From positions 1-13,789 of the IMG/VR virus record IMGVR_UViG_3300045988_121957: DNA of 13,789 nucleotides; one strand, 5' to 3'. Every line of letters starts with the position of its first letter. The first letter of the stretch is position 1. The translations under genes and the position numbers were made by a program. This stretch comes from a virus. The notes beneath the pieces are model-generated. The model ran no database searches. It saw only the letters and a list, made by a program, of their open reading frames with translations, and had not been told where the DNA came from. Below are positions 1 to 13,789 of the stretch, piece after piece.

Positions 1-89
1 TTATTCTGTTGACATATTAGTTCAAATGGACTATAATAAACTCAACAAATCAATACAGCACAGCCAACTAGGCAGGAGGGTGAATATGA
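1..89. repeat. Left inverted terminal repeat (ITR), 89 bp
   Basis: Positions 1-89 are the exact reverse complement of 13701-13789, compared base by base. Identity breaks at position 90 versus 13700. The repeat sits exactly at the window ends. Confidence 0.97.
9..37 (+). promoter_or_regulatory. Consensus sigma-A (sigma70-type) promoter inside the left ITR, reading inward
   Basis: TTGACA at 9-14, a 17-nt spacer, and TATAAT at 32-37. Both hexamers match consensus perfectly. Downstream lie AGGAGGG (74-80) and ATG (86). Confidence 0.8.
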
Positions 90-853
90 AAGAAAATACT
101 TTAGTTTTACGTCCATCTTACTGGGCTTCAGTTTCCGGAGGAAAAGATAGCTTATATATGTTAAAATACATATTGACTAACATAGATAAGTACCCATTAG
201 ATGGAGTGATTCATTTCGAACTTGAGATTGACTATCCATTCATTCATGAAGTAATTGACTATATGGAAGATGAATGCAAAAAATATGGCATTAAATTTGT
301 CAGAATCAAGCCTAGAAAAACATGGGATGAACTATATAAAAAATATGGATTTCCGACAAGAAAGGCACGCTGGTGTAATAGTCATTACAAATTGGATGCA
401 CTTAAACAACTTAATGAATATATGAATCAATTAGGTTATTTCGTTGTAAGCTATATCGGATATTGTGCTGATGAGGAAAAAAGGTTTAAAAATAAAAATA
501 AAAATAAAAACGAAATATACCCACTTGTTGATGCAGGCATTAAAGAAGGTGTAATATTAGAATGGGCGAAAAGACAGCCAATATTTAACCATTATTATGA
601 GTACAACACTAGATGTGGCTGTATGTATTGTCCAATGTCAAGGTACATTAATTATGCCTATTTGTATAAATTTTATCCAGATAAATTTCAGTTCATGATT
701 GAAAAAATGAGAGAGACTGAAAAAATGAGGGAGCATGAACTTGGGCATCCTTTTTCCGTGATATCCTCAAATCCAAAATATAATGCGGACTATTTAGAGG
801 AAATCATTAAAACAAAATGGTTAAAAAAACTTAAAGAACAGGAGGAACAGTAA
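86..853 (+). CDS. PP-loop ATP pyrophosphatase, PAPS-reductase/DndC-like family (255 aa)
   Basis: SGGKDS PP-loop motif in 'WASVSGGKDSLYML'. 'ARWCNSHYK' and a C-terminal 'RCGCMYCP' cysteine cluster are typical of phage PAPS-reductase-like proteins. I chose the ATG at 86 because it lies 5-6 nt after AGGAGGG. The track start at 26 falls inside the promoter spacer. Confidence 0.75.
   Translation: MKENTLVLRPSYWASVSGGKDSLYMLKYILTNIDKYPLDGVIHFELEIDYPFIHEVIDYMEDECKKYGIKFVRIKPRKTWDELYKKYGFPTRKARWCNSHYKLDALKQLNEYMNQLGYFVVSYIGYCADEEKRFKNKNKNKNEIYPLVDAGIKEGVILEWAKRQPIFNHYYEYNTRCGCMYCPMSRYINYAYLYKFYPDKFQFMIEKMRETEKMREHELGHPFSVISSNPKYNADYLEEIIKTKWLKKLKEQEEQ
488..511 (+). repeat. In-frame hexanucleotide microsatellite (AAAAAT)x3 + AAAAAC encoding KNKNKNKN
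   Basis: Direct reading gives aaaaat aaaaat aaaaat aaaaac. Position 488 is codon position 1 of the CDS starting at 86. Confidence 0.9.
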
Positions 854-1288
854 ATGAAATCAAAATACACAAAAATCAAATATACGAACACCGGAGTAAA
901 ATCCCCGGTAGTAACTCTTATGAAATCAAAATCAGATCTTGATAGAACAGACATGATAGAATTAAGATATTCAGACATAATCATAGTTATTTCAAGAATT
1001 TTACGAAAAACTATGTATAATAAAGCAGAATCAAGAATCGAAATACGAAGAAAAAATAACACTCTTTGTGCACTAGTTAGAGTAAAGGATACTATCAATG
1101 ATGCAAAAATAATGGTTGAAAACTATTACATTTTCGCAAAACTTTATATATATTTGAATGAACAAAAATATATTAGTGACAAAGAGTATAGATACTATGA
1201 AGAATGGGCTAAGATAGTGTATGATGGGTTTAATCATAAACTATATGATGAAATAATGGGGGTGCTCAAATATGCCAAAGAATCCTAG
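854..1288 (+). CDS. Hypothetical early protein (144 aa), Lys/Tyr-rich
   Basis: The ORF starts immediately after the upstream stop (TAAATG) and overlaps the next gene by 17 nt. I recognised no motif. The region is very AT-rich. Confidence 0.6.
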   Translation: MKSKYTKIKYTNTGVKSPVVTLMKSKSDLDRTDMIELRYSDIIIVISRILRKTMYNKAESRIEIRRKNNTLCALVRVKDTINDAKIMVENYYIFAKLYIYLNEQKYISDKEYRYYEEWAKIVYDGFNHKLYDEIMGVLKYAKES

Positions 1289-1892
1289 AATCCCGACCAC
1301 TTCAAAAGGGTTGAACGTCAACCCAAACATGCTTACTACTGCCGAAGCTTTACAGCTTCGCAGACAGCTTGCTAAACGTCTGAATCAGCGTATGCGTAGA
1401 TTAAAGGCAAAAGGATTTGATTCAGAATTTGGCGGGGCGTATGCCGACTATCAAGATTTACTTGTAAGATTTTTTCCAGGACGATCAACCATTCCGGAAA
1501 ACTTGGAAAATGAAAAGTATAAAGGCTTGCCTAGAACACAAGTCAAGGCAATACAAAAAGTGCTGAAAGAAAAGAGCAGCACTGTGCAAGGTTGGAGAGA
1601 AATTATTGATAAGCGTCAAAAAACGCTATCTGATGAATATGGAATTACTTTTAAGTCAAAATCAGAAATGAAACTTTTTTTCAAATCTGAGGTATGGAAG
1701 TGGATGCAAACCTTTTATGATAGCAAACAGACGTTGAGAATCATCAGTCACAAACTTGATAAGTCTACAGTCAAAAAAATAATAGAGGACCTGGAACAAT
1801 TTAGGGAGCGTACAGACAATGAGATGGCTGATGTGATAGCTAAACAGCTAGGGTTCTCTGGTGAGGCTGAGGCATTGAAGTACAGACCATAG
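1272..1892 (+). CDS. Candidate terminal protein (206 aa)
   Basis: It lies immediately upstream of the protein-primed DNA polymerase, the same order as phi29 gene 3 then gene 2. The N-terminus is strongly basic ('LQLRRQLAKRLNQRMRRLKAKG'). A GGGGGTG SD sits 8 nt upstream. I recognised no direct sequence similarity. Confidence 0.45.
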   Translation: MPKNPRIPTTSKGLNVNPNMLTTAEALQLRRQLAKRLNQRMRRLKAKGFDSEFGGAYADYQDLLVRFFPGRSTIPENLENEKYKGLPRTQVKAIQKVLKEKSSTVQGWREIIDKRQKTLSDEYGITFKSKSEMKLFFKSEVWKWMQTFYDSKQTLRIISHKLDKSTVKKIIEDLEQFRERTDNEMADVIAKQLGFSGEAEALKYRP

Positions 1893-1908
1893 CAGGGGGG
1901 GTAAAATA

Positions 1909-4032
1909 ATGGTAGTCGCAGGTTATCCGGTTATTTATTTTAAAAACTATGATTATATGCGACTGTTCAATGGTGATTTCATCCGACGATCCAACGCTGG
2001 TCATTATCTAGGAGTTTACGAAAAAATCATAACGGTAGACACGGAAACTTTTGTCTATCTCAATAAAGATATTGGGTTTGTGACAGATTGGACAATCACG
2101 ATAGAGAATGACTGCTGTATTTATGGCAACCATGTTTCTGATCTGATTGATACGATAGACAGGATCTGCACAACTTTACATACTGACGACAGCCACCTTG
2201 TAAGATTTTATGTGCATAATTTTCCTTATGATTATGTATTTTTAAGAAATCATTTTTTCCAAAAATGGGGGAATCCGGACAAATCATTAGCTGCTAAAAC
2301 ACATAAGTACATCTTTATGAAATGGACGGGACAGGGCATTGAGTTCCGGGACAGTCTTATCTTGACACAGAGATCATTAGAAAAGCTTTGTAAAGACATG
2401 GGAACCACTGAGAAAGCTGTCGGAACATGGGACTATAAGAAATTTCGAACACCAGCAAGCCCACGTACGGCAAAAGAAATAGCATATGTCTGTACGGATA
2501 CGATAAGTTTATGCAAGGCACTACGCAAATACATAAATCAGAGAGGCTTTAACGTGGCGAACTGTCCACTGACAAACACAGGCTTTATCCGGACTAATGC
2601 CCGCAGGAGATCAAGAAAAGATAAGAAATGGCGTAAGCAATTTGAGCAAATGGCATTAACACTTGAACAGTATGACCAGATGCTTGACTGCTATCATGGG
2701 GGGTATACTCATGCCAACAGATACTATGTTAATCAGCTGATAAAAGAACCTGTCGAATGCTATGATTTTGCAAGTTCATACATTGCCTGGATGTGCTATT
2801 GCAAGTTTCCAATGACGAACTTTTGTTATACAAATAGTATAACATTAAAAGACATTATGGAACTGAAAGAAGATTATGCGTTTTCCGGCTATATAAGATT
2901 AAAGAATCTGAGGTTGAAAAAAGACTGCCCTATGCCACCTCTTGCTTTTTCAAAAGCAAAAGTTTGTCTGTTTCCGGAAGCAAAAAGCAAAAAGGAGCAA
3001 TTTCATGATAACCTAGACAATGGAAAGATTGTAAATGCAGATCTTGTCATATATCCATTTACTGATCCGGATTTAGAAGTCATCCTGTCAAGTTATGAGT
3101 ATGAATGGGCTGACGTGTCAAAAGTCATGAGAGCTACAAAGGACTACTTGCCGGAGTGGTTCACGGACTACTTGATGGAATTGTTTTTTAAAAAATGCAC
3201 CCTTAAAGGTTTGGATGAAGCAAACTACATGATCTCAAAAGGTGAGTTAAATGGAATGTATGGTATGACAGTACAAAGAATCATACAGATCTTATGTACT
3301 GAGTTGATGGAATCCGGAGATTGGGAGGCAAAAGAACCAGAGGACAGGGAGAAAGAACTTGAAAAATTTTACCGGAATAAAAACAGTTTCATGCCCTACC
3401 AGTGGGGAGTTTTTATCACAGCTTATGCACAGGCTTATCTTTTCCGGCTAGGCTCCTGCTGCCGGAGATGGTTTTATTCAGACACAGATTCAGTAAAAGG
3501 CACAGACTGGGATCATGATAAACTGAATGCATTTAATCAGTCCATCATTGAATTGTCACAAAAAAGAAACATTGGAGTAGTTGAGTATAATGGAAAAATT
3601 TTCCGGTTGGGAATTGCTGAGTTTGACGGAATCTACAGTGAGTTTATAACGATGGGTAGTAAGCGGTATTGCTACCGGTTGAAAAAAGATGCATCTTTGC
3701 ATCTGACGGTTGCAGGAGTGCCAAAAGAGGGAATCTATTGCCTGGATGATGATATTACCAACTTTCGAAAAGGATTTATTTTCAAAAATGATCTTACATT
3801 CCGCAGGAACTACCGCAGGTCAAATGATTGGTGTGATCCCAAATGGAAAATGAAAACGGAGTATCTTTTTCATGATGGAATCAATGAACTGACCATTGAC
3901 GGATGCAGGATTGAGTATGGCTGTGCTATCCGCTTAACGGATACAGAGTATGAATTGGATCATACGATTCCGTATGATAAAGAAACAGGATTACCGTTGC
4001 CATTTGAAATGGAAGATACGGTATATGAATAG
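1909..4032 (+). CDS. Protein-primed family-B DNA polymerase (707 aa)
   Basis: ExoI 'VDTETF', ExoII 'HNFPYDYVF', ExoIII 'YVCTDTISL', 'YHGGY', motif A 'YDFASSY', motif B 'KGELNGMYG'. 'WGVFITAYAQ' parallels phi29 'MGVFITAWAR'. Also motif C 'YSDTDS' and a KxY motif 'SKRYCY'. A GGGGGG SD precedes the ATG. Confidence 0.95.
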   Translation: MVVAGYPVIYFKNYDYMRLFNGDFIRRSNAGHYLGVYEKIITVDTETFVYLNKDIGFVTDWTITIENDCCIYGNHVSDLIDTIDRICTTLHTDDSHLVRFYVHNFPYDYVFLRNHFFQKWGNPDKSLAAKTHKYIFMKWTGQGIEFRDSLILTQRSLEKLCKDMGTTEKAVGTWDYKKFRTPASPRTAKEIAYVCTDTISLCKALRKYINQRGFNVANCPLTNTGFIRTNARRRSRKDKKWRKQFEQMALTLEQYDQMLDCYHGGYTHANRYYVNQLIKEPVECYDFASSYIAWMCYCKFPMTNFCYTNSITLKDIMELKEDYAFSGYIRLKNLRLKKDCPMPPLAFSKAKVCLFPEAKSKKEQFHDNLDNGKIVNADLVIYPFTDPDLEVILSSYEYEWADVSKVMRATKDYLPEWFTDYLMELFFKKCTLKGLDEANYMISKGELNGMYGMTVQRIIQILCTELMESGDWEAKEPEDREKELEKFYRNKNSFMPYQWGVFITAYAQAYLFRLGSCCRRWFYSDTDSVKGTDWDHDKLNAFNQSIIELSQKRNIGVVEYNGKIFRLGIAEFDGIYSEFITMGSKRYCYRLKKDASLHLTVAGVPKEGIYCLDDDITNFRKGFIFKNDLTFRRNYRRSNDWCDPKWKMKTEYLFHDGINELTIDGCRIEYGCAIRLTDTEYELDHTIPYDKETGLPLPFEMEDTVYE

Positions 4033-4099
4033 AATTATTATAAATTTGTAATACTTTTGTAACATAAATAAGTTAAACTGTATAAAGGAGCTGTAACCT

Positions 4100-4213
4100 A
4101 TGAAAAAATTCTGGAAAGAAAATAAGGAAGATTTAAATACCCTTTTCTGGACTTGCATAACTTTTGCTTGCATGTTTGCAAGCTGTCAAGTCTGGATGTT
4201 GTTAGGTGATTAA
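4100..4213 (+). CDS. Small hydrophobic protein, 37 aa (not in ORF track)
   Basis: AAGGAG at 4085-4090 lies 9 nt before the ATG. My translation is MKKFWKENKEDLNTLFWTCITFACMFASCQVWMLLGD, with one predicted C-terminal TM segment. The ORF also contains a strong hairpin at 4150-4192, so an RNA-level role is possible. Confidence 0.45.
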   Translation: MKKFWKENKEDLNTLFWTCITFACMFASCQVWMLLGD

Positions 4214-4237
4214 AAAATCAGTAAAGGAGAGAATACT

Positions 4238-4459
4238 ATGAAACAAGTTGTTGAAACAAGTGAGATTAAAAAGAAAATTGAACAATTAATCAAGTCAGCA
4301 CAGAGAGATTACAAGAGAGGAGACATTCATTTTTATGATAAGAAAATAGATGCAGTCGTTATATTTTTTGATTTATTAGAGGATTTAGTATGTGAGCCGG
4401 AAACATGGGAAGATGATATGTTTCGTTTAAATGAGTGGATGGATTCATTAAGGAGGTGA
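4238..4459 (+). CDS. Hypothetical protein (73 aa), mildly acidic, helical
   Basis: ORF track entry. AAAGGAGAG SD lies 7-8 nt before the ATG. I recognised no motif. Confidence 0.65.
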   Translation: MKQVVETSEIKKKIEQLIKSAQRDYKRGDIHFYDKKIDAVVIFFDLLEDLVCEPETWEDDMFRLNEWMDSLRR

Positions 4460-4466
4460 GTAAAAA

Positions 4467-4607
4467 ATGATTGACATGTCAGAGATTTATGAAACAGTGC
4501 GAACAAGCAGTCTGAGAAAAGTTAGCTATGAGGATGATGAGATCAGTATCGTAGCTTACAAAGTTGGAAACATCATTAGAATTGACGTAAAGGAGATGCA
4601 AAGATGA
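4467..4607 (+). CDS. Hypothetical small protein, 46 aa (not in ORF track)
   Basis: AGGAGG at 4451-4456 lies 10 nt before the ATG. My translation is MIDMSEIYETVRTSSLRKVSYEDDEISIVAYKVGNIIRIDVKEMQR. Its TGA overlaps the next ATG (ATGA). Confidence 0.55.
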   Translation: MIDMSEIYETVRTSSLRKVSYEDDEISIVAYKVGNIIRIDVKEMQR

Positions 4608-4780
4608 CAACAATTTATGAATTATATGATGCATTACTTACTATAAAAGAGTATTGTACATCAAACAATACATGCAAGAATTGTCCACTCATTGATAGTG
4701 ATGATTGCTGCATTTTTATAAAAGATACAGCACCATCGAATTGGAAACTGGTTGAGCCAACAAGAAGATTATATAAATAA
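4604..4780 (+). CDS. Cys-rich small protein, 58 aa (not in ORF track)
   Basis: AAGGAG at 4590-4595 lies 8 nt before the ATG, and ATGA couples it to the previous ORF. My translation is MTTIYELYDALLTIKEYCTSNNTCKNCPLIDSDDCCIFIKDTAPSNWKLVEPTRRLYK. The C-x5-C-x2-C...CC pattern suggests metal binding. Confidence 0.55.
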   Translation: MTTIYELYDALLTIKEYCTSNNTCKNCPLIDSDDCCIFIKDTAPSNWKLVEPTRRLYK

Positions 4781-4794: not shown

Positions 4795-5094
4795 ATGTTA
4801 AAATCAAATGTAAAAATCACTTGCAAACCTTATAACGGTAGTTCAAAAACAAAAGCCTTTGTTGATCTGGATCTGGATGATACACTTGTAATTAAAGGAC
4901 TTACACTGGTTGAGGGGGAAGACGGACTTTTCTTGTCATTCCCAAGTAAAAAAGGCAAAGATGGACAGTATTACAATTCCGTCTATTCACTTGATAAAGA
5001 GTGGTTAAAACTTTTGAAGGATGCTTGCGTCAAAAAATACAATGAATGCAACCAGACTTCACAGCCTGCATCCTCCGGAGGTGGATTTCGGTAA
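4795..5094 (+). CDS. SpoVG-family nucleic-acid-binding protein homologue (99 aa)
   Basis: It aligns by eye along the full length of B. subtilis SpoVG. The core 'GEDGLFLSFPSKKGKDGQYY' parallels SpoVG '[20 protein letters not shown]'. Length is similar (~97 aa). The SD is strong. Confidence 0.75.
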   Translation: MLKSNVKITCKPYNGSSKTKAFVDLDLDDTLVIKGLTLVEGEDGLFLSFPSKKGKDGQYYNSVYSLDKEWLKLLKDACVKKYNECNQTSQPASSGGGFR

Positions 5095-6143
5095 TGAATA
5101 TCTATGATAAAAATGGTTGGCTGGACGTTCCAAGGATTGTCCAGCTTGCCGATAAAAATAAAATTAACTTTATCTTTATCATTGGAGCAAGACGAACCGG
5201 AAAAACGTATGGAATCTTCCAGCACTTTATCAATGATGTCTTTTCAAAAAATGAAAAGATCATTTACATGCGCCGCACAAAAGAGCAGCTGACAAAAGTG
5301 TTTCTTCCGGAGTTTGATCCGTGGCTGGACATAAACAAAGATATGAATAGGTTTTTTCATTTTGAAAAACCCAGAGGTGAATACGGTCGAATTAAGATTA
5401 TGGAGCAGACAGAGGAAGAGGAAGTATATAGAGGTGAGGCTTTTTGTCTTACCTCTATGCACAACAACCGTGGTTTCTCTGGATCCGATTTTTCTGAGGG
5501 TATCTATGATGAATTTATCCCGGAGAAGATTGCTAAGTCAATCAGTGGGGAAGATGATGCCTTTTTGAATGCTGTTGAAACAATCTCAGCAAATAGGGAG
5601 TTGCAAGGAAAGAAACCATTCCGCTGGTGGCTTGCTTCCAATTCTAACACCTTGGATAATGCAATAGTGCAAGCTTTTGGTTTGCTTCCAATATTGGAGC
5701 GGATGAAAAAGAATGAGAAGGAGTTTTCCATGCTCAAAGAGAGAGGAATCATCTTGGTTCTGATAAATGATTCCCCAATTTCAGAAAAGAAAAAAGATAC
5801 TGCTTTGTATCGGGCTTTATCGGGTGATACAGACTTTGCAAAGATGGCTTTATCTAATGAGTTTGCATATGATGATGTATCAGCAATAAAATCAGAGGAT
5901 ATAAGGCAGTACAAGCTTATTTGTGTCATTGGAAAAATAGCAATTTATGAGCATAAATCAAAAGCACACTTGTATGTGTCGGATCATATCTCTGGATCTT
6001 GCAAAGATGTATTTGAAGATAGTCAGCATGGAAAAGACCAATTTAGATGCTTTTATAGTTGGATTGATAGCTATCGTCTGACAAATAGGATAAGTTATCA
6101 GAATATTTCAGTAAAATTTTATATTGACAAATTATTCAAATAG
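5094..6143 (+). CDS. DNA encapsidation (packaging) ATPase, phi29 gp16 type (349 aa)
   Basis: 'FIIGARRTGKTY' parallels phi29 gp16 'FVIGARGIGKSY' (Walker A). 'IIYMRRTKEQL' parallels 'FIYVRRYKPEL'. 'YDEFIPEK' parallels 'FDEFIREK' (Walker B). I placed the start at ATG 5094, which overlaps the SpoVG-like stop (TAATG) and has GGAGG upstream. The track start at 5046 would overlap that gene by 49 nt. Confidence 0.9.
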   Translation: MNIYDKNGWLDVPRIVQLADKNKINFIFIIGARRTGKTYGIFQHFINDVFSKNEKIIYMRRTKEQLTKVFLPEFDPWLDINKDMNRFFHFEKPRGEYGRIKIMEQTEEEEVYRGEAFCLTSMHNNRGFSGSDFSEGIYDEFIPEKIAKSISGEDDAFLNAVETISANRELQGKKPFRWWLASNSNTLDNAIVQAFGLLPILERMKKNEKEFSMLKERGIILVLINDSPISEKKKDTALYRALSGDTDFAKMALSNEFAYDDVSAIKSEDIRQYKLICVIGKIAIYEHKSKAHLYVSDHISGSCKDVFEDSQHGKDQFRCFYSWIDSYRLTNRISYQNISVKFYIDKLFK

Positions 6144-6152: not shown

Positions 6153-6157
6153 TTACT

Positions 6158-6244: not shown

Positions 6245-6262
6245 AGAAAAGGAGAAAAGAAA

Positions 6263-8088: not shown

Positions 8089-8313
8089 ATGACAGACACA
8101 ATTTTAACCGTATTGGGAAACTATGCATTTCCTATCGTTTGTTGTATCGGTATGGCCTACTTTGTGAAGTACATGTATGACCAAACCAATGCAAGAGTTG
8201 ACAAACTCAACGAAGAACACAAAAACGAAGTTGACACACTTTCTGAGGTAATCAAAAACAATACGATTGCCTTAGAAAAGATGAATACATTAATCGAACA
8301 GATTGGAAAGTAG
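8089..8313 (+). CDS. Holin, BhlA/UviB-like (74 aa)
   Basis: A single N-terminal TM segment ('NYAFPIVCCIGMAYFVKYMY') is followed by a charged coiled-coil tail. This matches the architecture of BhlA-family holins. It lies directly upstream of the endolysin. Confidence 0.7.
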   Translation: MTDTILTVLGNYAFPIVCCIGMAYFVKYMYDQTNARVDKLNEEHKNEVDTLSEVIKNNTIALEKMNTLIEQIGK

Positions 8314-8320
8314 GTGCTAT

Positions 8321-8977
8321 ATGACAGCAAATGAACTTGTAGTATATGCTCATAATTTAATTGGCACTCCTTATGTGTGGGGTGGTAACACCCCAGCACA
8401 GGGACTTGACTGTTCCGGATTACTCTACTATATCCAGAAAAAAGCAGGATCAGAGGTTGAAGATATGACTGCTTCTGGCTATTCGACGATTGGAAAAAAG
8501 ATTGATATTGGGCAGAAAAAACCGGGTGATTTTCTCTTTTTTGGCAGACCAGTGACTCATTGTGCTATTTATGTTGGAAATGGATATATGATCGAAAGCC
8601 GAGGAGGACGAAAAAACACTGCTTCCAATCCTGGTATTGGAGTTGTCAAAAGCCTTGTAAGTCGTAGATCTGACTTATCCTGCATCCGCAGGGTATGGGA
8701 AGAATATAATGAAGAATTAACCTATTCGATTGGAAAAACATATACGACCAGGGTTGATCATTTACATGTACGCTACAGTGTATGGGGACAGATCAAAGAG
8801 TATGCACATCTGACAAGGGATGGCATGAAACATGCTTATTCCGATGGATGTCTGAAAAAAGGAACCACAGTCACGGTAAAGGATGTCAAAAAGGATGAAG
8901 CCGGAGCAACGTGGGTTAAGATTCCATCCGGCTGGATCTGCGCCATTACTTCAAAGGGAGATATATATTTGTCATGA
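8321..8977 (+). CDS. Endolysin: NlpC/P60 endopeptidase + C-terminal SH3b-like wall-binding domain (218 aa)
   Basis: 'GTPYVWGG...GLDCSGL' carries the catalytic Cys. 'GDFLFF...THCAIYVGNGYMIES' carries the catalytic His. The C-terminal 'GTTVTVKDV..GATWVKIPSGWI' is SH3b-like. I preferred ATG 8321 to the TTG at 8303 given in the track. Confidence 0.85.
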   Translation: MTANELVVYAHNLIGTPYVWGGNTPAQGLDCSGLLYYIQKKAGSEVEDMTASGYSTIGKKIDIGQKKPGDFLFFGRPVTHCAIYVGNGYMIESRGGRKNTASNPGIGVVKSLVSRRSDLSCIRRVWEEYNEELTYSIGKTYTTRVDHLHVRYSVWGQIKEYAHLTRDGMKHAYSDGCLKKGTTVTVKDVKKDEAGATWVKIPSGWICAITSKGDIYLS

Positions 8978-10317
8978 CAGAGATTATCTTATATCATTTT
9001 TCCAAAAGAAAAAACAGTACCAAAAGACCAACGGGGCAGGGCACTACTGTGCCCTGTCTTTTAAAATCAAATACCAGTTTTCAAAATCCAGTATTTAAGT
9101 TAAAGCTAGCAATGGATAGTGCATTACAATACAACTATTTGAAATGGGCTGACCATTACTATTTTATTAATTCGACAGTTTCACTGAATAACGACATGGT
9201 AGAGATCTCAGCCAGTGAGGATGTGCTGGCAACCTACCGGACAGAGATCAGCAACTATACATGTTTTATCGAGCGATCCAGTAAGCAGACTACGCTTGCC
9301 AATGACAGCATGTATATCCCAACAAATGACTGGGTAAGTCAATCTACGATTGTTGGTCAACCAATAAATACATTTGTGAATGGATATGCCCCAAACTATT
9401 TACTGCGTACTGTTTCGGTTGAGGGAATAAATACTTACTATATAAGAGGTACGCAATTGAATGATTTGTGCTCATTTATGTATACGTATGGATCCATTCC
9501 GGATGTAATGGAAACAGCATTGACACGTTTACTTTTTAATCCGTTTGAGTATATTCTTGATTTAAAATGGTTACCTTTTAGAGTTGATAAGTTCCTAAAC
9601 ATATTAGATACAGTAAAGCTTGGCTACTGGGACAGCAATGCAAATGCCTATCTGATAAATGATGCATCTTGTACTTTTTCCTACGATTTAAGCCTTGGTA
9701 ATCCCTTATATGCTGATACAGATTTTAGATTTTACAATGCATCTTTTTCAAAGTATAGCGTAAAGCTTCCATTTGTGGGGGTTATTCCTATCAATCCAGC
9801 AAAAACCCATAAGGGGCAGTTAAAAGCCACTTATAACTTTGATGCTGTATCCGGCATGGCTGATGTTTGGCTGACATCCGGATCTGATGAATATGCACAC
9901 TTTCAATGCCAGCTTGCCGTTCCAGTGCAAATTGGGTATGCATCTGCAAACATTGGACAGCTTACTACCAGCTTGATAGATGCTGGAACTAGCCTTGCTT
10001 CCGGTAACCCAATAGGGGCTATCACAAATACATTAGGAGCCTTTCAGAGTGTGACTTCTCCGGAGCCTAACATGGTAGGAACAGTTGGAAATATTGGCAG
10101 TATACTTAATAACATGGAAGCAAACAGCATCTGCTATGCCTGCACAAGCATAGATCCGGATGGAACTAGTGAGGGTTATGTAGATGGAACTATCCGAACT
10201 ATTTCTTCACTGACTGGCTTTGTAAAGTGCCGGAATGCATCTATCCAGATTGCAGGATTTGAGGGGGATCAAGAGCAGGTGAATAGTTACTTAAATAACG
10301 GATTTTACTTTGAATAG
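8974..10317 (+). CDS. Tail knob / distal tube protein, phi29 gp9-like (447 aa)
   Basis: 'KWADHYYFINSTV...SEDVLATY' parallels gp9 'NKWFYAFVTE...EIDVLQTW'. A Gly/Ala/Ser/Thr-rich hydrophobic segment ('SLIDAGTSLASGNPIGAITNTLGAF') resembles the gp9 membrane-active loop. C-terminal 'YLNNGFYFE' parallels 'IFDNGITLW'. These matches are from my memory of gp9. Confidence 0.65.
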   Translation: MTEIILYHFSKRKNSTKRPTGQGTTVPCLLKSNTSFQNPVFKLKLAMDSALQYNYLKWADHYYFINSTVSLNNDMVEISASEDVLATYRTEISNYTCFIERSSKQTTLANDSMYIPTNDWVSQSTIVGQPINTFVNGYAPNYLLRTVSVEGINTYYIRGTQLNDLCSFMYTYGSIPDVMETALTRLLFNPFEYILDLKWLPFRVDKFLNILDTVKLGYWDSNANAYLINDASCTFSYDLSLGNPLYADTDFRFYNASFSKYSVKLPFVGVIPINPAKTHKGQLKATYNFDAVSGMADVWLTSGSDEYAHFQCQLAVPVQIGYASANIGQLTTSLIDAGTSLASGNPIGAITNTLGAFQSVTSPEPNMVGTVGNIGSILNNMEANSICYACTSIDPDGTSEGYVDGTIRTISSLTGFVKCRNASIQIAGFEGDQEQVNSYLNNGFYFE

Positions 10318-10332
10318 AAAGAGGTGATAAAC

Positions 10333-11253
10333 ATGTGGACACCAGTTAACTTTGATAAAATCAACATTTGCACAAATTACTTCCAGCCATCCGGAATTAA
10401 AGTCGACAGCATATATACTGATACGTTTGATCGGATGCTTTATGAGCGTGTTTGTTCCATTTTAGACATTAGCTATAATGGAACTATTGACATCGATTAC
10501 TTCAAATATTGCCTTCTTTTCGGGGGGTATATTTGCATCACAAAGACAGATCTTTATGGACTGATTGCACAGTATCCAATGCTGACAGGCTACAATATTT
10601 ATTTTAAGCCTACCACAGCTACTATACATACGTATGCAAGCAATGCCGTTATTGACATGGAGGACATGGAGATTGGAAAAGACTGCGCCGTCATCTATCT
10701 AAGACCAACATTCTGCGGCATTGGGGATATCATCGGTTTTTACAGCTATAAGCTGGCACTGGTAGCAAGTGCTTTTGATATGAATGTTTTTAATTCAAAA
10801 CTTGCATTTTTGATAGCTGCAAAAAGTAAGGCAGCAGCCCAGACCTTGAAAAAAATCTATGACAGCATTCAATCCGGTAATCCGGTTGAGGCTTTTGATG
10901 TATCAATTAAAACTGAGGACAGACAAGGAAGCAAACAGGATGCCTGGGAGAGCTTTAATAAAGATCTGAAGCAAAACTTCATTGCACCGGAGCTGATTGA
11001 GGTATTTGAGAAACTTCTGGATCAGTTCGATACAGAGGTTGGTATTCCATCTGTCGGATCTGATAAAAAAGAACGTCTGAATGTACTTGAAACAAGCAAA
11101 AATGATGCAGAATCCGTGACAAGGCTCACTACTTGGCTTGAGACAATGCAAGCAGGGGTTGATATGACAAATAGACTTTACCCGGAGATGAACTTATCTA
11201 TCAAGATCAGAAGCTATGAGACTGCGGAGGTGAAAGCATATGGGACTTTATAG
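10333..11253 (+). CDS. Portal / connector (upper collar) protein, phi29 gp10-like (306 aa)
   Basis: 'GIPSVGSDKKERLNVLETSKNDAES' parallels gp10 '[27 protein letters not shown]'. The length is close to gp10 (309 aa). I preferred ATG 10333, 6 nt after GAGGTG, to the GTG at 10324, which lies inside the SD. Confidence 0.85.
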   Translation: MWTPVNFDKINICTNYFQPSGIKVDSIYTDTFDRMLYERVCSILDISYNGTIDIDYFKYCLLFGGYICITKTDLYGLIAQYPMLTGYNIYFKPTTATIHTYASNAVIDMEDMEIGKDCAVIYLRPTFCGIGDIIGFYSYKLALVASAFDMNVFNSKLAFLIAAKSKAAAQTLKKIYDSIQSGNPVEAFDVSIKTEDRQGSKQDAWESFNKDLKQNFIAPELIEVFEKLLDQFDTEVGIPSVGSDKKERLNVLETSKNDAESVTRLTTWLETMQAGVDMTNRLYPEMNLSIKIRSYETAEVKAYGTL

Positions 11254-11929
11254 AGTAACGATAGCAGGGCTTTATGAATGGAACAATACCCTATTTGACA
11301 AGATGGAGTTCCCGGAATCAGCTGACAGGCAAAATTTTATTGACAGCTTGCTTCTGTCCTATGGGGATTGTGAGCCACTTTATCCAGACTGGGATTTTAT
11401 GCATGAGAACGCCATACCTGCATGGAGCAGGAAGTGGAAAAGAAGCATAGACAAAGTCTATAAAGTATTAGATTTAACTGATTATGAACCACTTGAAAAC
11501 TATGACCGTCATGAAGAATGGACAGATAGCCCGGATATGACACGAACAAGTCAGAGTTCCGGACAGGATGTAAATAGGGCAGAAGCAGGACAGGGAACCA
11601 CTACGACCAACTCTGGGGCAGATACAGCTATCAATGATGTCAGTGCTTTTAACGATTCCAGCTACAGTCCGAACGAAAAAACAACAACGGAGTACGGGGG
11701 CAGCACAAAAGTACAAAGCTCTGGGGAAAACAAAAACACATTTGAATACGGAAAAGGTGAAACAAGCCGAGAGACAGGACAGAATAAGCATTCCGGACGT
11801 ATTCATGGGAATATTGGTGTGACCACTTCGCAGCAGATGGGGCTATCTGAGCTCAGTCTGAGGAAACAAAGCTTTATTGATTATTGCACTGGGCTTTTTG
11901 CACAGGATCTGCTTTTATTAATTTATTAA
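11240..11929 (+). CDS. Lower collar protein, phi29 gp11-like (229 aa)
   Basis: It follows the portal gene as in phi29. The C-terminal 'HGNIGVTTSQQM' motif is one I associate with Picovirinae lower collar proteins. The centre is S/T/G/N-rich. A GAGGTG SD is present. Confidence 0.6.
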   Translation: MGLYRVTIAGLYEWNNTLFDKMEFPESADRQNFIDSLLLSYGDCEPLYPDWDFMHENAIPAWSRKWKRSIDKVYKVLDLTDYEPLENYDRHEEWTDSPDMTRTSQSSGQDVNRAEAGQGTTTTNSGADTAINDVSAFNDSSYSPNEKTTTEYGGSTKVQSSGENKNTFEYGKGETSRETGQNKHSGRIHGNIGVTTSQQMGLSELSLRKQSFIDYCTGLFAQDLLLLIY

Positions 11930-11941
11930 GGAGGAATGATT

Positions 11942-13198
11942 ATGTTTTTTGAATACCCACATAGTTCTATGCAGGATATGAACTTAGACTGGTTGCTTAA
12001 AGTTGGCAAACAGGCTGACAAAGATCATGAAGAGTGGACGCATATTAAAGACACAGCACAGACCATGATTGATGATGCTATTCAAAAATCACTTGATGAT
12101 GGAGAGATCGGAAAAGTAGTAAATGAAGCTACTACAAAAGTCATCACTGAACAGATTGACCCATTAAAAGAACAGGTTGGAACAAATACAGCTGATATTA
12201 CAAAGTTACAAAAAAGAGAAGGTCTTTTTGACCACTCCGGAAAAACCATCATCATCGGAGACAGCTACACGGTTGGATATAGTCCAGAGGGTAATTTACA
12301 GCCCTGGACTACAAACTTTATCAAGTACACAGGGCTTGAAAATGTTACTATTTCCGCAAATGGCGGGGCATCTTTCTCAACAGCTGCTAATTCATTCCTT
12401 ATGCTTTTAAATGCTGTCCCTGCTTCTGATGACGTGAAACAGATCCTTGTAGTTGGAGGGTTTAATGAGTTCGGAACCTATTCAGAGATTGAAAACGCAA
12501 TCAATGCTTTTATGGGTGCTGCGGAGGTCAGATTCCCAAATGCAAAAGTCTTTGCCGCTATGGTAGCATGGTCAGTTGACCGGACGGATGACCCAAACGT
12601 GCAAAACAGATTAAAGATTGCAAAATCTGTTTATAATACACAGCGGAAGAATTGGCGGTATCTGGCAGGGTCAGATTATATCCTCCATGCTGATGGCTTT
12701 CTTGGATCTGATGGGTTCCATCCAAACAGTACCGGGCAGGAACGTCTTGCTACATATCTTTCTACAGCTGTAGAAACAGGAGTATGTAGTCCATCATTTT
12801 ACGAAGTTAGTGCAAACTTTGAAGCAGGTGACTTTGCACCAACTCTGGGATCAAGCTGGCCTTTTGTGAGTTCGTATAATGAAAATACAAGCACTTTAAT
12901 CTGGGGTAACTATGTTTGCTTACCAAACAGCAGAACGCTTGTCTGTGATGGCACTGAATACTATTTGGGGCGCATCTATTCGACTTCCTTTATCGGAGAT
13001 CATAACGGCTATACATGCTACCCAACCGCTGTGATCGTTAAGTCCAGCAGTGACTTTTTTCACATTCCTGCACAGCTTAACTTCCGAGGTCGACATATCT
13101 ATTTGAGTTTGTATGATATTTCTGATGATAAGCACAACTACCGGACTTTGACAGAAGTTACACAGGTACAGATTCATAGAGGATCAATTACCATGTAA
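11942..13198 (+). CDS. Tail appendage / receptor-binding protein with SGNH (GDSL) hydrolase domain (418 aa)
   Basis: SGNH block I 'IIIGDSYTVGY', block II 'ANGGASF', block III 'VVGGFNEF' and block V 'SDGFHPNSTG' are all present. An N-terminal helical region probably serves as the anchor, and a ~130-aa C-terminal domain is unassigned. ATG 11942 lies 7 nt after AAGGAGG; the track start at 11936 is too close to the SD. Confidence 0.75.
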   Translation: MFFEYPHSSMQDMNLDWLLKVGKQADKDHEEWTHIKDTAQTMIDDAIQKSLDDGEIGKVVNEATTKVITEQIDPLKEQVGTNTADITKLQKREGLFDHSGKTIIIGDSYTVGYSPEGNLQPWTTNFIKYTGLENVTISANGGASFSTAANSFLMLLNAVPASDDVKQILVVGGFNEFGTYSEIENAINAFMGAAEVRFPNAKVFAAMVAWSVDRTDDPNVQNRLKIAKSVYNTQRKNWRYLAGSDYILHADGFLGSDGFHPNSTGQERLATYLSTAVETGVCSPSFYEVSANFEAGDFAPTLGSSWPFVSSYNENTSTLIWGNYVCLPNSRTLVCDGTEYYLGRIYSTSFIGDHNGYTCYPTAVIVKSSSDFFHIPAQLNFRGRHIYLSLYDISDDKHNYRTLTEVTQVQIHRGSITM

Positions 13199-13210
13199 AT
13201 ATAAAATATG

Positions 13211-13239
13211 ATAGCCCAGCAGCCACTGGGCTATTTTTA
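13211..13239. terminator. Bidirectional intrinsic terminator between the convergent late (+) and right-early (-) units
   Basis: A perfect 9-bp stem pairs ATAGCCCAG with CTGGGCTAT around a 6-nt loop (CAGCCA). A T-run follows on the + strand and a U-rich tract follows on the minus strand. It sits 12 nt after the + strand stop and abuts the minus-strand stop at 13237-13239. Confidence 0.8.
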
Positions 13240-13512
13240 TGCATCTATCAAAAGGTTTCTGAGCAACTTTATTACTCCCCAGTTTGTTGAAGCATGATAA
13301 AATTTAGACTCTTTAAATGGCTGATAGTAAGTTACAGCCCAATCTTTATATCCAGTTAAGGATATTTCAATGTAATCTATATAGCAAAGATAGTATACAC
13401 ATAAATAATCGCCATTTTCGGATAATCCGCAAGTATAGCCTTGCTTCTCAAGATCACAAGTGAGTTGTTTAAGGTTCATTGTGTCTTTGTTGTAGTATGG
13501 ATTCACTTTCAT
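13237..13512 (-). CDS. Hypothetical right-end early protein (91 aa), Tyr/Cys-rich
   Basis: ORF track entry. An AGGAGG SD precedes the ATG (minus strand 'aaataggaggtatataacATG'). I recognised no motif. Confidence 0.65.
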   Translation of the reverse strand: MKVNPYYNKDTMNLKQLTCDLEKQGYTCGLSENGDYLCVYYLCYIDYIEISLTGYKDWAVTYYQPFKESKFYHASTNWGVIKLLRNLLIDA

Positions 13513-13524
13513 GTTATATACCTC

Positions 13525-13704
13525 CTATTTAAATCCTTTTTCTTTCATTTCGTCTTCAAGATTTTTTAATTCTTTCCAAATTTTTTTTTCATGTGCTACA
13601 AATACTTCAATATCAGGATATTTCATAGTATAATCATACTCTCTACCCCATCTTTCTAATAATGCTTCATGTGCTAATTCATATAATCTTGCTTCTTTCA
13701 TCAT
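13525..13704 (-). CDS. Hypothetical right-end early protein (59 aa), helical, Glu/Lys-rich
   Basis: It is the first gene downstream of the right ITR promoter and SD. It starts at the ITR-encoded ATG (13704). The 20-aa N-terminal extension in the track is an ITR artefact. Confidence 0.65.
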   Translation of the reverse strand: MMKEARLYELAHEALLERWGREYDYTMKYPDIEVFVAHEKKIWKELKNLEDEMKEKGFK

Positions 13705-13789
13705 ATTCACCCTCCTGCCTAGTTGGCTGTGCTGTATTGATTTGTTGAGTTTATTATAGTCCATTTGAACTAATATGTCAACAGAATAA
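13701..13789. repeat. Right inverted terminal repeat (ITR), 89 bp
   Basis: Exact reverse complement of 1-89. Confidence 0.97.
13753..13781 (-). promoter_or_regulatory. Consensus sigma-A promoter inside the right ITR, reading inward
   Basis: Mirror copy of the left ITR promoter. On the minus strand, -35 is at 13776-13781 and -10 at 13753-13758. The same SD and an ATG at 13704 follow. Confidence 0.8.

What the first reader, a model, noticed from the sequence alone, without database searches (positions are those of the whole stretch)
1..13789. The window looks like a complete, unusually small (~13.8 kb) linear genome of a phi29-like protein-primed phage
The 89-bp perfect ITR sits exactly at both window ends. 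The interior encodes a full protein-primed podovirus set: PolB with the TPR2-type 'GVFITAYA' region, a gp16-type ATPase, and scaffold, capsid, portal, lower collar, tail knob, appendage and lysis genes. phi29 and Cp-1 are both ~19.3 kb, so this genome is roughly 30% smaller and near the lower size range known for tailed dsDNA phages. I saw no integrase or repressor, which suggests a strictly lytic lifestyle. The host assignment to low-GC Firmicutes, probably Clostridia, is inferred from promoters, SDs and gene families.
Basis: partly seen in the sequence, partly recalled or inferred. Interest (0 to 1): 0.7.

Follow-up and report, generated by a model that had tools for sequence, protein, structure and literature searches.

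The report
Near-complete small phi29-like gut phage genome
The window is an almost complete genome, missing 144 bases at each end, of a common and already catalogued human-gut relative of phage phi29; its size is ordinary for that group, but it carries a conserved small structured RNA that has no match in Rfam 15.

Summary
A perfect 89-nt inverted repeat sits at both window ends. The interior encodes a protein-primed-type PolB, a gp16-type packaging ATPase, a phi29-type capsid protein, a connector, a tail knob (shown by fold) and lysis genes.

1. The window is not complete. Two public contigs of this same phage extend 142 and 144 nt beyond its ends, and one of them is 100% identical to the window over 3,853 nt. 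The extended right end starts AAACTTGGCAA, the sequence at which 19 related contigs stop. One related contig carries an Illumina adapter remnant there. The true ITR is 233 nt and the genome is about 14,077 bp.

2. The size is not unusual. More than 130 IMG/VR relatives are 11-14.4 kb. Cultured relatives are 10.4-12.3 kb. A 2024 review already lists this lineage among phi29-related phages. This window is the largest of its clade because it carries an accessory SspD/PAPS-reductase-like gene.

3. 'GVFITAYA' is the Tx2GR motif that follows TPR2, not TPR2 itself. The terminal-protein and lower-collar assignments rest on gene position only. The host is unresolved.

Found in passing: a roughly 70-nt three-way-junction RNA at the head of the structural operon, conserved with covariation across lineages that share only 26-40% ATPase identity. 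Its helix order is that of phi29 pRNA.

The parts
1..89 (+). Inner 89 nt of the left inverted terminal repeat. The outer 144 nt are missing from the window; the full ITR is 233 nt and starts AAACTTGGCAA.
   Evidence: Perfect inverted repeat with 13701-13789. The extension is seen in L147 and L148, which are the same phage, and in relatives.
13701..13789 (-). Inner 89 nt of the right inverted terminal repeat.
9..37 (+). Consensus sigma-70-type promoter (TTGACA-17-TATAAT, 12/12) inside the ITR, firing inward. It is followed by a GGAGGG ribosome-binding site (75-80) and an ATG at 86. The mirror copy lies at 13781-13753 on the minus strand.
   Evidence: sequence. Conserved in relatives.
86..853 (+). 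Accessory PP-loop ATPase of the PAPS-reductase / SspD / BrxP type. The listed ORF starts at 26, but that ATG lies upstream of the predicted transcription start, so 86 is the likely start.
   Evidence: Pfam PAPS_reduct 1.5e-7 and PHROG 424 4.5e-42. PADLOC SspD 1.8e-23 and BrxP 2.1e-16. Present in only 3 of 56 clade genomes.
854..1288 (+). 144-aa ORF of unknown function, variable among relatives.
   Evidence: No family hit.
1272..1892 (+). Candidate terminal protein: 206 aa, all-alpha, basic N-terminal part, near-invariant Ser103 and Ser151. Assigned by position only.
   Evidence: Lies immediately upstream of PolB, as do the roughly 200-aa ORFs in AD70P3 and astrithr, which are weakly similar. 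83 representatives at 50% clustering. No link to phi29 TP. Fold neighbours are only uncharacterised proteins of metagenomic podophages.
1909..4032 (+). Family-B DNA polymerase of the protein-primed type. Has ExoI/II/III, motifs A, B and C, KxY, an insertion at the TPR2 position, and GVFITAYA (the Tx2GR motif).
4100..4780 (+). Four small ORFs of unknown function (4100-4213, 4238-4459, 4467-4607, 4604-4780).
   Evidence: PHROG 9264 (unknown function) matches 4604-4780.
4795..5094 (+). SpoVG-like nucleic-acid-binding protein, a core gene of the clade.
   Evidence: Pfam SpoVG 3.4e-16; NCBIfam 1.1e-14. Conserved in all relatives and in L053/L054.
5046..6143 (+). gp16-type DNA packaging ATPase. The true start is probably the ATG at 5094.
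   Evidence: Pfam Podovirus_Gp16 4.7e-16 and PHROG 2150 9.5e-27. Matches in many distant relatives begin at residue 17.
6124..6152 (+). Promoter (TTGACA-17-TATATT, 11/12) of the structural operon and of the RNA below.
   Evidence: An equivalent promoter is present in 37 of 42 lineage variants.
6159..6226 (+). Conserved three-way-junction RNA.
- P1: 6159-6168 pairs with 6217-6226.
- P1b: 6169-6171 pairs with 6195-6197.
- Single strand J: 6172-6179.
- P2: 6180-6183 pairs with 6189-6192, with a CGGAA loop.
- P3: 6199-6202 pairs with 6210-6213, with loop 6203-6209.
- J 6175-6178 is complementary to the P3 loop 6204-6207.
   Evidence: No Rfam match.
6263..6574 (+). Scaffold-like ORF: 103 aa with a Thr/Pro/Gln-rich repeat. 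Assigned by position only.
   Evidence: Lies upstream of the capsid gene, as phi29 gene 7 does. No family hit. Repeat family D1.
6587..7786 (+). Major capsid protein, phi29 type.
   Evidence: Pfam Phi29_MCP 7.9e-15. 30% identity to Amedibacillus phage capsid protein.
7783..8082 (+). 99-aa ORF of unknown function, poorly conserved.
8089..8313 (+). Holin-like small protein.
   Evidence: PHROG 4898 (holin) 1.4e-4, a weak match.
8303..8977 (+). NlpC/P60 peptidoglycan hydrolase with a C-terminal domain of unknown specificity.
   Evidence: Pfam NLPC_P60 2e-18.
8974..10317 (+). Tail knob protein (phi29 gp9 type). Two allelic forms exist in the clade, at about 95% and about 64% identity.
   Evidence: AlphaFold model pLDDT 66. 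Foldseek top 9 hits are phi29 gp9 (5FB5, E = 1.8e-11), Andhra 8EGS_Y and C1 4EO2. Alleles.
10324..11253 (+). Connector / portal (phi29 gp10 type).
   Evidence: Pfam Phage_connector 6.6e-13 and PHROG 2038 1.5e-23.
11240..11929 (+). Candidate lower collar, assigned from the phi29 gene order 9-10-11-12.
   Evidence: Gene order. Conserved in AD70P3 at 26% identity. hhalign against gp11 is not significant. No PDB match. PMC11476376 reports p11 homologues in all cluster representatives.
11936..13198 (+). SGNH/GDSL-hydrolase-domain protein at the position of the phi29 appendage gene. A likely receptor-binding or receptor-modifying tail protein.
   Evidence: Pfam Lipase_GDSL_2 3.5e-7, below the gathering score. 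PHROG 31573 2.4e-23. Largely replaced in L053/L054.
13211..13234 (.). GC-rich hairpin between the converging rightward and leftward genes; a likely two-way terminator.
13237..13512 (-). 91-aa ORF of unknown function in the right-end leftward unit.
13525..13704 (-). 59-aa ORF of unknown function. Its start codon lies inside the right ITR copy, served by the ITR promoter and ribosome-binding site.

Best explanation
The window is the genome of a virulent-type phi29-related podophage from the human gut, lacking the outermost 144 bp of each 233-bp inverted terminal repeat. The real length is about 14,077 bp.

Inferred life cycle:
- The linear DNA probably carries a terminal protein at each 5' end. 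The candidate is the 206-aa product of 1272-1892.
- The PolB starts replication at both ends on the 3'-TTT... template. The terminal AAA would allow the sliding-back step known from phi29.
- Each ITR copy holds a consensus promoter, a ribosome-binding site and a start codon that drive transcription inward.
- The left unit expresses an accessory SspD-like enzyme, the terminal-protein candidate, PolB, small proteins, a SpoVG-like protein and the packaging ATPase.
- A second strong promoter at 6124 starts the structural and lysis operon with a 68-nt three-way-junction RNA.
- A short leftward unit of two small genes comes in from the right end. The two directions meet at a hairpin at 13211-13234.
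- Unit-length DNA is packaged by the gp16-type ATPase through the gp10-type connector.

The phage belongs to a very abundant, already catalogued gut lineage whose genomes are normally 12.9-13.6 kb.

Shown: the ITR and the true ends, the family assignment of PolB, ATPase, capsid, connector and tail knob, and the abundance and size of the lineage.

Inferred: protein priming, terminal-protein identity, the transcription scheme, lifestyle and host.
For: - ITR.
- True ends: L147 is identical to window 1-3853 and 142 nt longer. L148 is 144 nt longer at the right end and starts AAACTTGGCAA.
- 27 contig ends in 19 relatives start exactly at AAACT[T/A]GGCAAG, including two relatives with only 68-69% PolB identity. 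One contig has the adapter tail CTTCCGATCT fused to that end.
- Gene families. PolB motifs aligned with phi29. Tail knob fold.
- ITR and operon promoters.
- No relative is longer than 14.4 kb, and none has host flanks, among 54 + 80 IMG/VR loci and hundreds of protein-cluster contigs.
- Literature placement of the lineage.
Against: - No protein here can be shown to be a terminal protein. The family upstream of PolB has no sequence or fold similarity to phi29 TP.
- No read-level data are available, so linearity and blocked 5' ends rest on contig ends and one adapter junction.
- The lower collar and scaffold are positional calls only.
- Lifestyle is argued from the absence of hits, while several small ORFs remain unknown.
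- Phi29-related elements kept as plasmids are known (PMC11476376).
Confidence: 0.9

Rival explanations
1. The window is the complete genome: the ITR is 89 bp and the window ends are the physical DNA ends.
For: The repeat is perfect and reaches exactly to both ends.
Against: A contig identical to the window over 3,853 nt runs 142 nt further, and another runs 144 nt further at the right end. The extension is itself an inverted repeat, because the left extension in L147 and the right extension in L148 have the same sequence. Other clade contigs show equally perfect symmetric ends cut at various depths of the same ITR. So symmetric ends are an assembly effect.
Confidence: 0.03
2. The element is not an autonomous virulent phage. 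It would instead be a linear plasmid-like or carrier-state element, or a helper-dependent phage as shown for Acinetobacter phage Phanie.
For: Phi29-related sequences annotated as plasmids exist, and Phanie needs a helper myophage (PMC11476376). Several ORFs are unknown.
Against: The window has a full head, connector, tail knob, lysin and holin-like set, plus a tail enzyme. The tail knob is one 447-aa gene, not the split form described for the Gram-negative helper-dependent group. No partition, integrase or repressor family was detected.
Confidence: 0.07
3. The three-way-junction RNA at 6159-6226 acts in cis as a 5' leader of the structural operon, controlling stability, translation or read-through. 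It would not be a packaging RNA acting in trans.
For: It starts at the predicted transcription start in 37 of 42 lineage variants. It is followed within 15-45 nt by the ribosome-binding site and ATG of the first structural gene. In MT835998 it stays with the structural operon although the ATPase gene lies elsewhere. The J-to-loop pairing could be an internal pseudoknot.
Against: The order of helices and the co-varying loop pair match phi29 pRNA domain I (PMC5066667). The junction nucleotides are not conserved, and only the apical CNGAA loop is, which does not look like a small-molecule sensor. A run of U after P1 is present in only some lineages, so a terminator role is not general.
Confidence: 0.45

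Closest known systems
Bacteriophage sp. MT836115.1 and capsid cluster 12 / terminase cluster 9 of phi29-related viruses in PMC11476376 (representative Caudoviricetes sp. ctFJX15, 12,830 bp)
   Same: 84% DNA identity over 84% of the window and 96% PolB identity. Same gene order, same human-faeces source, similar GC content.
   Different: The window carries an extra SspD/PAPS-reductase-like gene at the left end. Its true length of 14,077 bp exceeds the 12.9-13.6 kb of the clade's contigs that end in the terminal sequence at both ends.
Amedibacillus phages AD70P2/AD70P3 (12.2-12.3 kb; filed under Guelinviridae in GenBank)
   Same: Nearest cultured relatives: PolB 31%, capsid 30%, ATPase 33%, tail knob, connector and collar candidate each about 26% identity, in the same order. 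A roughly 200-aa ORF lies upstream of PolB. A three-way-junction RNA with a CCGAA loop lies between the ATPase and scaffold genes.
   Different: Very low identity. They lack SpoVG, the NlpC/P60 lysin and the SGNH gene found here. Their GC content is 26.7% against 38%.
Bacillus phage phi29 (Salasmaviridae)
   Same: Same protein families for PolB, ATPase, capsid, connector and tail knob. Same gene order 9-10-11-12. Linear genome with ITRs and a terminal AAA.
   Different: No direct BLAST or phmmer match of PolB to phi29. The ITR is 233 bp against 6 bp. Almost all genes are on one strand, instead of diverging early and late units. The lysis genes sit between the capsid and tail genes. No TP, p5 or p6 homologues were found, and there is no Rfam pRNA match.
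Astrithrvirus and relatives (Salmonella phage astrithr, Acinetobacter phage Phanie, Vibrio phage K58 g2; 10.4-11.9 kb)
   Same: Small protein-primed-type podophages: PolB 28-30% and capsid 24-25% identity, with a roughly 200-aa ORF upstream of PolB.
   Different: Gram-negative hosts and a split tail knob (PMC11476376). The RNA descriptor finds nothing in astrithr or K58 g2.
phi29 prohead RNA (pRNA, Rfam RF00044)
   Same: Same order of elements: closing helix, inner helix, single-stranded loop, hairpin, return strand, second hairpin, closing helix. A 3-8-nt complementarity between the inner loop and the second hairpin loop changes sequence between lineages but persists. Both start at a transcription start site. 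Both occur in phages with a gp16-type ATPase.
   Different: About 70 nt against 117-174 nt, with a short closing helix. No Rfam match. It lies at the head of the structural operon rather than at the genome's left end. Whether the loops pair between molecules is unknown.

Membership tests
phi29-related phages (hallmark set p2, p8, p9, p10, p11, p16 of PMC11476376) | Protein-primed-type family-B DNA polymerase (p2) | tested here: met
   Pfam DNA_pol_B_2 9.1e-14 and PHROG 1907 1.6e-50. Exo I-III, motifs A, B and C, Tx2GR and KxY align with phi29, with an insertion at the TPR2 site.
phi29-related phages (hallmark set p2, p8, p9, p10, p11, p16 of PMC11476376) | phi29-type major capsid protein (p8) | tested here: met
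   Pfam Phi29_MCP 7.9e-15, above the gathering score.
phi29-related phages (hallmark set p2, p8, p9, p10, p11, p16 of PMC11476376) | Tail knob (p9) | tested here: met
   Foldseek on the AlphaFold model: the top 9 PDB hits are tail knobs, led by phi29 gp9 at E = 1.8e-11, and the next hit has E > 0.06. TM-scores are only 0.3-0.4 and model pLDDT is 66.
phi29-related phages (hallmark set p2, p8, p9, p10, p11, p16 of PMC11476376) | Connector / upper collar (p10) | tested here: met
   Pfam Phage_connector 6.6e-13 and PHROG 2038 1.5e-23.
phi29-related phages (hallmark set p2, p8, p9, p10, p11, p16 of PMC11476376) | Lower collar (p11) | tested here: inconclusive
   Only gene order supports 11240-11929. 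hhalign against gp11 gives E = 0.064 over 11 columns, and the PDB profile search found nothing.
phi29-related phages (hallmark set p2, p8, p9, p10, p11, p16 of PMC11476376) | gp16-type packaging ATPase (p16) | tested here: met
   Pfam Podovirus_Gp16 4.7e-16, covering profile positions 14-299 of 331.
Protein-primed linear genomes | Inverted terminal repeats at true physical ends, with a short terminal base repeat | tested here: met
   233-nt ITR beginning AAACTTGG. The same end occurs in 19 related contigs, and one has an adapter junction there. This is contig-level evidence only.
Protein-primed linear genomes | A terminal protein covalently bound to the 5' ends | not testable with these tools
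   The candidate at 1272-1892 is positional. There is no homology or fold match to phi29 TP. Testing needs protease-dependent extraction or mass spectrometry.
Salasmaviridae (phi29 proper) | Close protein relatedness and shared genome organisation with phi29 | tested here: not met
   PolB has no tblastn hit to phi29 at E <= 1e-5 and no phmmer hit to PDB phi29 polymerase. Only the ATPase gives a partial 28% hit. The transcription layout is different.
Guelinviridae (GenBank label of the nearest cultured relatives) | Placement inside the family by shared gene content and phylogeny | not tested
   Identity to Amedibacillus phages is only 26-33%. No tree was built. The review splits 'Guelinviridae' across several capsid clusters and places this lineage in a separate cluster.
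phi29 pRNA (RF00044) | Match to the family covariance model | tested here: not met
   The Rfam scan of the whole window at E <= 1 gives no pRNA hit.
phi29 pRNA (RF00044) | Three-way junction with an inner bulge loop and a hairpin loop that are mutually complementary | tested here: met
   99.1% of cells are paired and 8 pairs have compensatory changes. Loop complementarity averages 3.93 nt against 2.56 nt for permuted partners, 0 of 2000 permutations.
phi29 pRNA (RF00044) | Loops pair between molecules to form a ring on the connector; needed for packaging | not testable with these tools
   Requires biochemistry or cryo-EM of proheads.

The most novel reading that the evidence does not exclude
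The 68-nt three-way-junction RNA at 6159-6226 and its counterparts in many small gut phi29-related phages, including cultured Amedibacillus phage AD70P3, could be a miniature prohead (packaging) RNA. That would mean pRNA is not confined to Bacillus phi29-like phages but is an ancestral part of the gp16-type packaging motor. Here it would be transcribed at the head of the structural operon.
Probability: 0.35. Interest if true: 0.8.

Novelty: new member of a known kind. Interest (0 to 1): 0.4.

Why it matters
As a genome, this is one more strain of a gut phage lineage that is already catalogued, so the size claim adds little.

Two points are worth keeping. First, a perfect ITR at both contig ends does not prove completeness. 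Assemblers cut collapsed ITRs symmetrically, and here the true ends could be recovered from other assemblies. Second, the conserved RNA at the start of the structural operon has no match in Rfam 15, and no paper found by three searches of the held literature library reports a pRNA outside the Bacillus phages. It is present in a cultivable phage, AD70P3.

If the RNA is a packaging RNA, it would answer the long-standing question of how gp16-type motors outside Bacillus phages dock onto the connector. It would also give a much smaller natural pRNA scaffold. If it is a leader element instead, it is a new class of phage late-gene control RNA.

Tried and rejected
- Rfam at E <= 1 over the whole window: only two chance-level hits, and no pRNA.
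- tRNA scan: none found.
- PolB against PDB sequences by phmmer: no hit.
- Endolysin search for host clues: the listed hits came only from the phage clade itself. tblastn against phages gave mixed Clostridioides, Actinomyces and Streptomyces hits over the catalytic domain only, which is not informative.
- Terminal-protein candidate: pairwise comparison and a 72-sequence profile against phi29 TP, PDB and Pfam all gave nothing. A confident AlphaFold model (pLDDT 86.5) had no PDB neighbour. In BFVD its neighbours were only uncharacterised metagenomic phage proteins.
- Shallow profiles of the tail knob and the collar candidate against phi29 gp9 and gp11 by hhalign: not significant. Only the fold search settled the knob.
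- Collar candidate, SGNH protein and PAPS-reductase-like protein against PDB sequences: nothing.
- Covariance model R1, built from the close clade: it found the RNA in MT836263 and MT835998 at E of about 1e-3 but missed AD70P3, MT835901 and MT836155. It also picked up terminator hairpins. I therefore replaced it with an explicit descriptor plus controls.
- The idea that the RNA is simply an intrinsic terminator: dropped as a general explanation, because the U-run after P1 is absent in many lineages.
- One wasted alignment call with a junk third sequence.

Full report
**1. The observation**

The window has a 100% complementary inverted repeat of 89 nt at positions 1-89 and 13701-13789, exactly at its ends. 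A repeat of that length cannot arise by chance in 13.8 kb.

All long ORFs but two lie on the + strand. Average GC is 38.0%, lower at the left end. There are no tRNAs.

- PolB, 1909-4032: Pfam DNA_pol_B_2 9.1e-14, PHROG 1907 1.6e-50.
- gp16-type ATPase, 5046-6143: 4.7e-16.
- phi29-type capsid protein, 6587-7786: 7.9e-15.
- gp10-type connector, 10324-11253: 6.6e-13.
- NlpC/P60 hydrolase, 8303-8977: 2e-18.
- A weak holin-like ORF, 8089-8313.
- An SGNH/GDSL-domain protein, 11936-13198.

No integrase, recombinase or repressor family was hit.

**2. PolB**

Aligned with phi29 polymerase, the protein has ExoI (DTET), ExoII (HNFPYD), ExoIII (YVCTD), motif A (DFASSY), motif B (KGELNGMYG), motif C (YSDTDS) and KxY (KRY).

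'GVFITAYA' aligns with phi29 GVFITAWAR. From my own knowledge of phi29 polymerase, this is the Tx2GR motif that follows the TPR2 insertion. The TPR2-equivalent stretch is the roughly 45-residue segment between motif B and that motif.

PolB is too far from phi29 for a direct BLAST or phmmer hit.

**3. The window is not complete**

Among 54 IMG/VR relatives found with PolB, many have longer ITRs. 27 contig ends in 19 contigs begin exactly with AAACT[T/A]GGCAAG. These include two relatives with only 68-69% PolB identity.

The window's first 45 nt occur at position 145 of such ends, with 0 mismatches in two of them. No contig runs past that sequence except L032. In L032 it is preceded by CTTCCGATCT, which I recognise as the 3' end of the Illumina adapter. 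That means a sequenced fragment ended there.

Look-ups by exact protein sequence gave direct proof:
- ENA contig k127_101728 (13,878 nt) carries the window's PAPS-reductase-like protein. It is identical to window 1-3853 with 0 mismatches and starts 142 nt further out, at ACTTGGCAATACTAACC.
- ENA scaffold_2298 (13,878 nt) carries the window's exact 91-aa right-end protein. It starts 144 nt beyond the window's right end with AAACTTGGCAATACTAACC.

The two extensions have the same sequence, so the ITR is 233 nt and the genome is 144 + 13,789 + 144 = 14,077 bp.

Several clade contigs show perfect symmetric ends cut at different depths of the ITR, for example L005, L013, L019, L020 and L029. The likely cause is an assembler that collapses the two ITR copies and stops at the same point on both sides.

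**4. What the ITR contains**

The inner part of the ITR holds a 12/12 consensus promoter, TTGACA-17-TATAAT, at 9-37 and mirrored at 13781-13753. These are the two best promoter matches in the window. It also holds a GGAGGG ribosome-binding site and an ATG at 86. The two ends diverge just after that codon.

Both terminal genes therefore use ITR-borne expression signals. The ORF list starts the left gene at 26, but that ATG lies upstream of the predicted transcription start, so 86 is the likely start.

The terminal AAA matches the phi29 end (AAAGTA) and would permit sliding-back initiation. That last step is an inference.

**5. Size and novelty**

No relative is longer than 14.4 kb, and none shows host flanks, among 134 IMG/VR loci and the contigs behind several hundred protein clusters.

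Clade contigs that end in the terminal sequence at both ends are 12.9-13.6 kb. This window is the largest because it carries the PAPS-reductase-like gene, which only 3 of 56 clade genomes have. That protein matches PADLOC SspD (1.8e-23) and BrxP, so it is probably a DNA-modification or counter-defence accessory gene.

Cultured relatives by PolB and capsid are smaller: Amedibacillus phages AD70P2/P3 12.2-12.3 kb, Astrithrvirus about 11.6 kb, Phanie 11.9 kb and Vibrio phage K58 g2 10.4 kb.

The review PMC11476376 collected 2,042 phi29-related viral sequences. It notes 11-14 kb genomes and tabulates many 12-15 kb human-gut representatives. Its Table S1 lists MT836115, the window's nearest GenBank relative at 84% DNA identity, in capsid cluster 12. 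The lineage and its size class are therefore already known.

**6. Remaining structural genes**

The order 8974-10317, connector, 11240-11929, 11936-13198 mirrors phi29 genes 9-10-11-12.

- Tail knob: an AlphaFold model of the 447-aa protein had mean pLDDT 66, with the N-terminal 100 residues near 90. Its top nine PDB matches were phi29 gp9 (5FB5, E = 1.8e-11), the Andhra tail knob and C1 gp12. Nothing else had E below 0.06. The gene has two allelic forms in the clade, at about 95% and about 64% identity.
- Lower collar: the 229-aa candidate could not be confirmed.
- The scaffold-like ORF and the SGNH protein are positional or domain-level calls.

**7. Terminal protein**

The 206-aa ORF just upstream of PolB has positional counterparts of about 200 aa in AD70P3 and astrithr. 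These are weakly similar: 26% over 157 aa with pairwise E = 2e-4, and 22% with E = 2e-3.

A full HMMER search found 83 representatives at 50% clustering, nearly all 185-260 aa, with near-invariant Ser103 and Ser151.

The profile shows no similarity to phi29 TP, to any PDB chain or to any Pfam family. A confident all-alpha model (pLDDT 86.5) has no PDB neighbour. In BFVD it matches only uncharacterised proteins of metagenomic 'Podoviridae sp.' and 'Tectiviridae sp.'.

The terminal-protein role is thus a reasonable inference from position and from the company the family keeps. It is not a demonstrated fact.

**8. Host and lifestyle**

Scans of one genome per bacterial species with PolB and with the accessory gene found no relative. 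The lysin's catalytic domain resembles those of Clostridioides, Actinomyces and Streptomyces phages about equally.

The review suggests Actinomycetia for capsid cluster 12 on the basis of lysin similarity. The nearest cultured relatives infect Amedibacillus and Clostridium. The promoters, ribosome-binding sites and SpoVG gene fit a Gram-positive host. I leave the host open.

A virulent lifestyle is likely, but it is argued from absence of evidence.

**9. A conserved RNA, found in passing**

Between the ATPase gene (ending 6143) and the scaffold-like ORF (starting 6263) lies an 11/12 promoter at 6124-6152, followed by a GC-rich element at 6159-6226. The element is more conserved than its flanks.

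It folds as a three-way junction:
- Closing helix P1, 10 bp.
- Inner helix P1b, 3 bp.
- An 8-nt single strand, J.
- Hairpin P2 with a CGGAA loop.
- Hairpin P3 with a 7-nt loop.

On 40 distinct sequences, 99.1% of cells are paired and 8 pairs carry compensatory changes. 0 of 500 shuffles reach the observed covariation score, and slid controls pair at 27-44%.

The same plan occurs at the same place in L053/L054, AD70P3, MT836263, MT835901 and MT836155. In MT835998 it sits at the head of the structural operon although the ATPase gene is elsewhere.

An explicit descriptor found it in 122 of 147 loci, against 2 hits in reversed-sequence controls. By ATPase identity it was found in 76 of 76 loci at 90% or more, 11 of 11 at 60-90%, and 35 of 54 below 60%. 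120 of 126 same-strand hits lie within 200 nt downstream of the ATPase gene.

Two features that were not part of the descriptor also hold:
- J is complementary to the P3 loop with lineage-specific sequences. Examples are AUCA:UGAU, ACCA:UGGU, GCUA:UAGC, GUCG:CGAC, GAAACA:UGUUUC and AAAAGGAA:UUCCUUUU. The mean is 3.93 nt against 2.56 +/- 0.13 for permuted partners, 0 of 2000 permutations.
- A promoter scoring at least 9/12 ends 3-12 nt before P1 in 37 of 42 variants, against 12 of 610 random positions.

Rfam has no match.

The order of elements and the co-varying loop pair are those of phi29 pRNA domain I: A helix, C helix, CE loop, E hairpin, D hairpin (PMC5066667). pRNA is described as unique to phi29 and related Bacillus phages (PMC5066667; PMC11476376), and my literature searches found no wider report.

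However, the element is also the 5' leader of the structural operon. It is followed within 15-45 nt by the first structural gene. A cis-regulatory role with an internal pseudoknot is at least as likely.

I rate the existence of the RNA family at about 0.95, a pRNA-like role at about 0.35 and a cis-leader role at about 0.45.

**10. Verdict**

The finding is a correct recognition of a phi29-related phage genome, with three over-statements: completeness, exceptional size and host. As a genome it is a new member of a known kind. The RNA is what deserves follow-up.

Noticed in passing
window 6124-6262 (RNA 6159-6226); also L053 6120-6188, L056 minus strand about 6365-6304, L063 8016-7947 minus strand, L061 1049-1123, L060 6026-6095, and many of L067-L146: A conserved three-way-junction RNA of about 70 nt sits behind a strong promoter at the head of the structural operon. 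It has a conserved CNGAA hairpin loop and a co-varying complementarity between an inner single strand and the second hairpin loop. It has no Rfam match, and its topology is that of phi29 pRNA domain I.
   Followed up: yes
window 1-89 and 13701-13789: The ITR carries a 12/12 consensus promoter, a GGAGGG ribosome-binding site and the start codon of the first gene at each end. The two terminal genes therefore share expression signals and their first codon.
   Followed up: partly
window 86-853: An accessory PAPS-reductase-family PP-loop protein that matches defence-system components SspD (1.8e-23) and BrxP. It is present in only 3 of 56 clade genomes and accounts for the window's extra length. It may act in DNA modification or counter-defence.
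   Followed up: partly
window 4795-5094: A SpoVG homologue is a core gene of the clade and of the L053/L054 sister group. No phi29 p5 or p6 homologue was found, so it may serve as the phage's DNA- or RNA-binding protein.
   Followed up: no
window 8974-10317: The tail knob gene exists in two forms across otherwise 93-97% identical genomes, at about 95% and about 64% identity to the window. This suggests recombination at a host-range determinant.
   Followed up: no
window 11936-13198; L053 11621-13274: The SGNH/GDSL-domain protein at the appendage position is largely replaced in the sister group: only 28% identity over part of it, plus two extra small ORFs. This fits a swappable receptor module.
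   Followed up: no
window 8089-8977: The holin-like gene and the lysin sit between the capsid gene and the tail knob gene, not at the end of the late operon as in phi29.
   Followed up: no
L032 right end; L031 left end: IMG/VR contig L032 keeps 10 nt of Illumina adapter (CTTCCGATCT) fused to the genome terminus. L031 starts with a 30-nt poly-A run. Both are untrimmed artefacts in a public collection, but the first one usefully marks a physical DNA end.
   Followed up: partly
L024, L041, L046 ends: Some relatives show terminal inverted repeats of 500-600 nt or more, and L046 has a left arm about 1 kb longer. These are either real ITR expansion that includes whole genes or fold-back assembly artefacts.
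   Followed up: no
window 6359-6426: The scaffold-like ORF contains a degenerate tandem repeat, about 20 nt per copy at 18-30-nt spacing, that encodes a Thr/Pro/Gln-rich segment.
   Followed up: no
outer ITR, L148 1-144 and relatives: The missing outer 144 nt contain conserved blocks: GTGAACAAATTGTTAACA, repeated TGTTCATATTT, and AAATTGTCTGACAAT. The last is kept even in the relatives with 68-69% PolB identity. These may be origin or protein-binding sites.
   Followed up: no
window 5046-5094: The listed ATPase ORF overlaps the SpoVG gene by 49 nt. Matches in many distant relatives begin at residue 17, so the real start is probably the ATG at 5094, which overlaps the SpoVG stop codon.
   Followed up: partly
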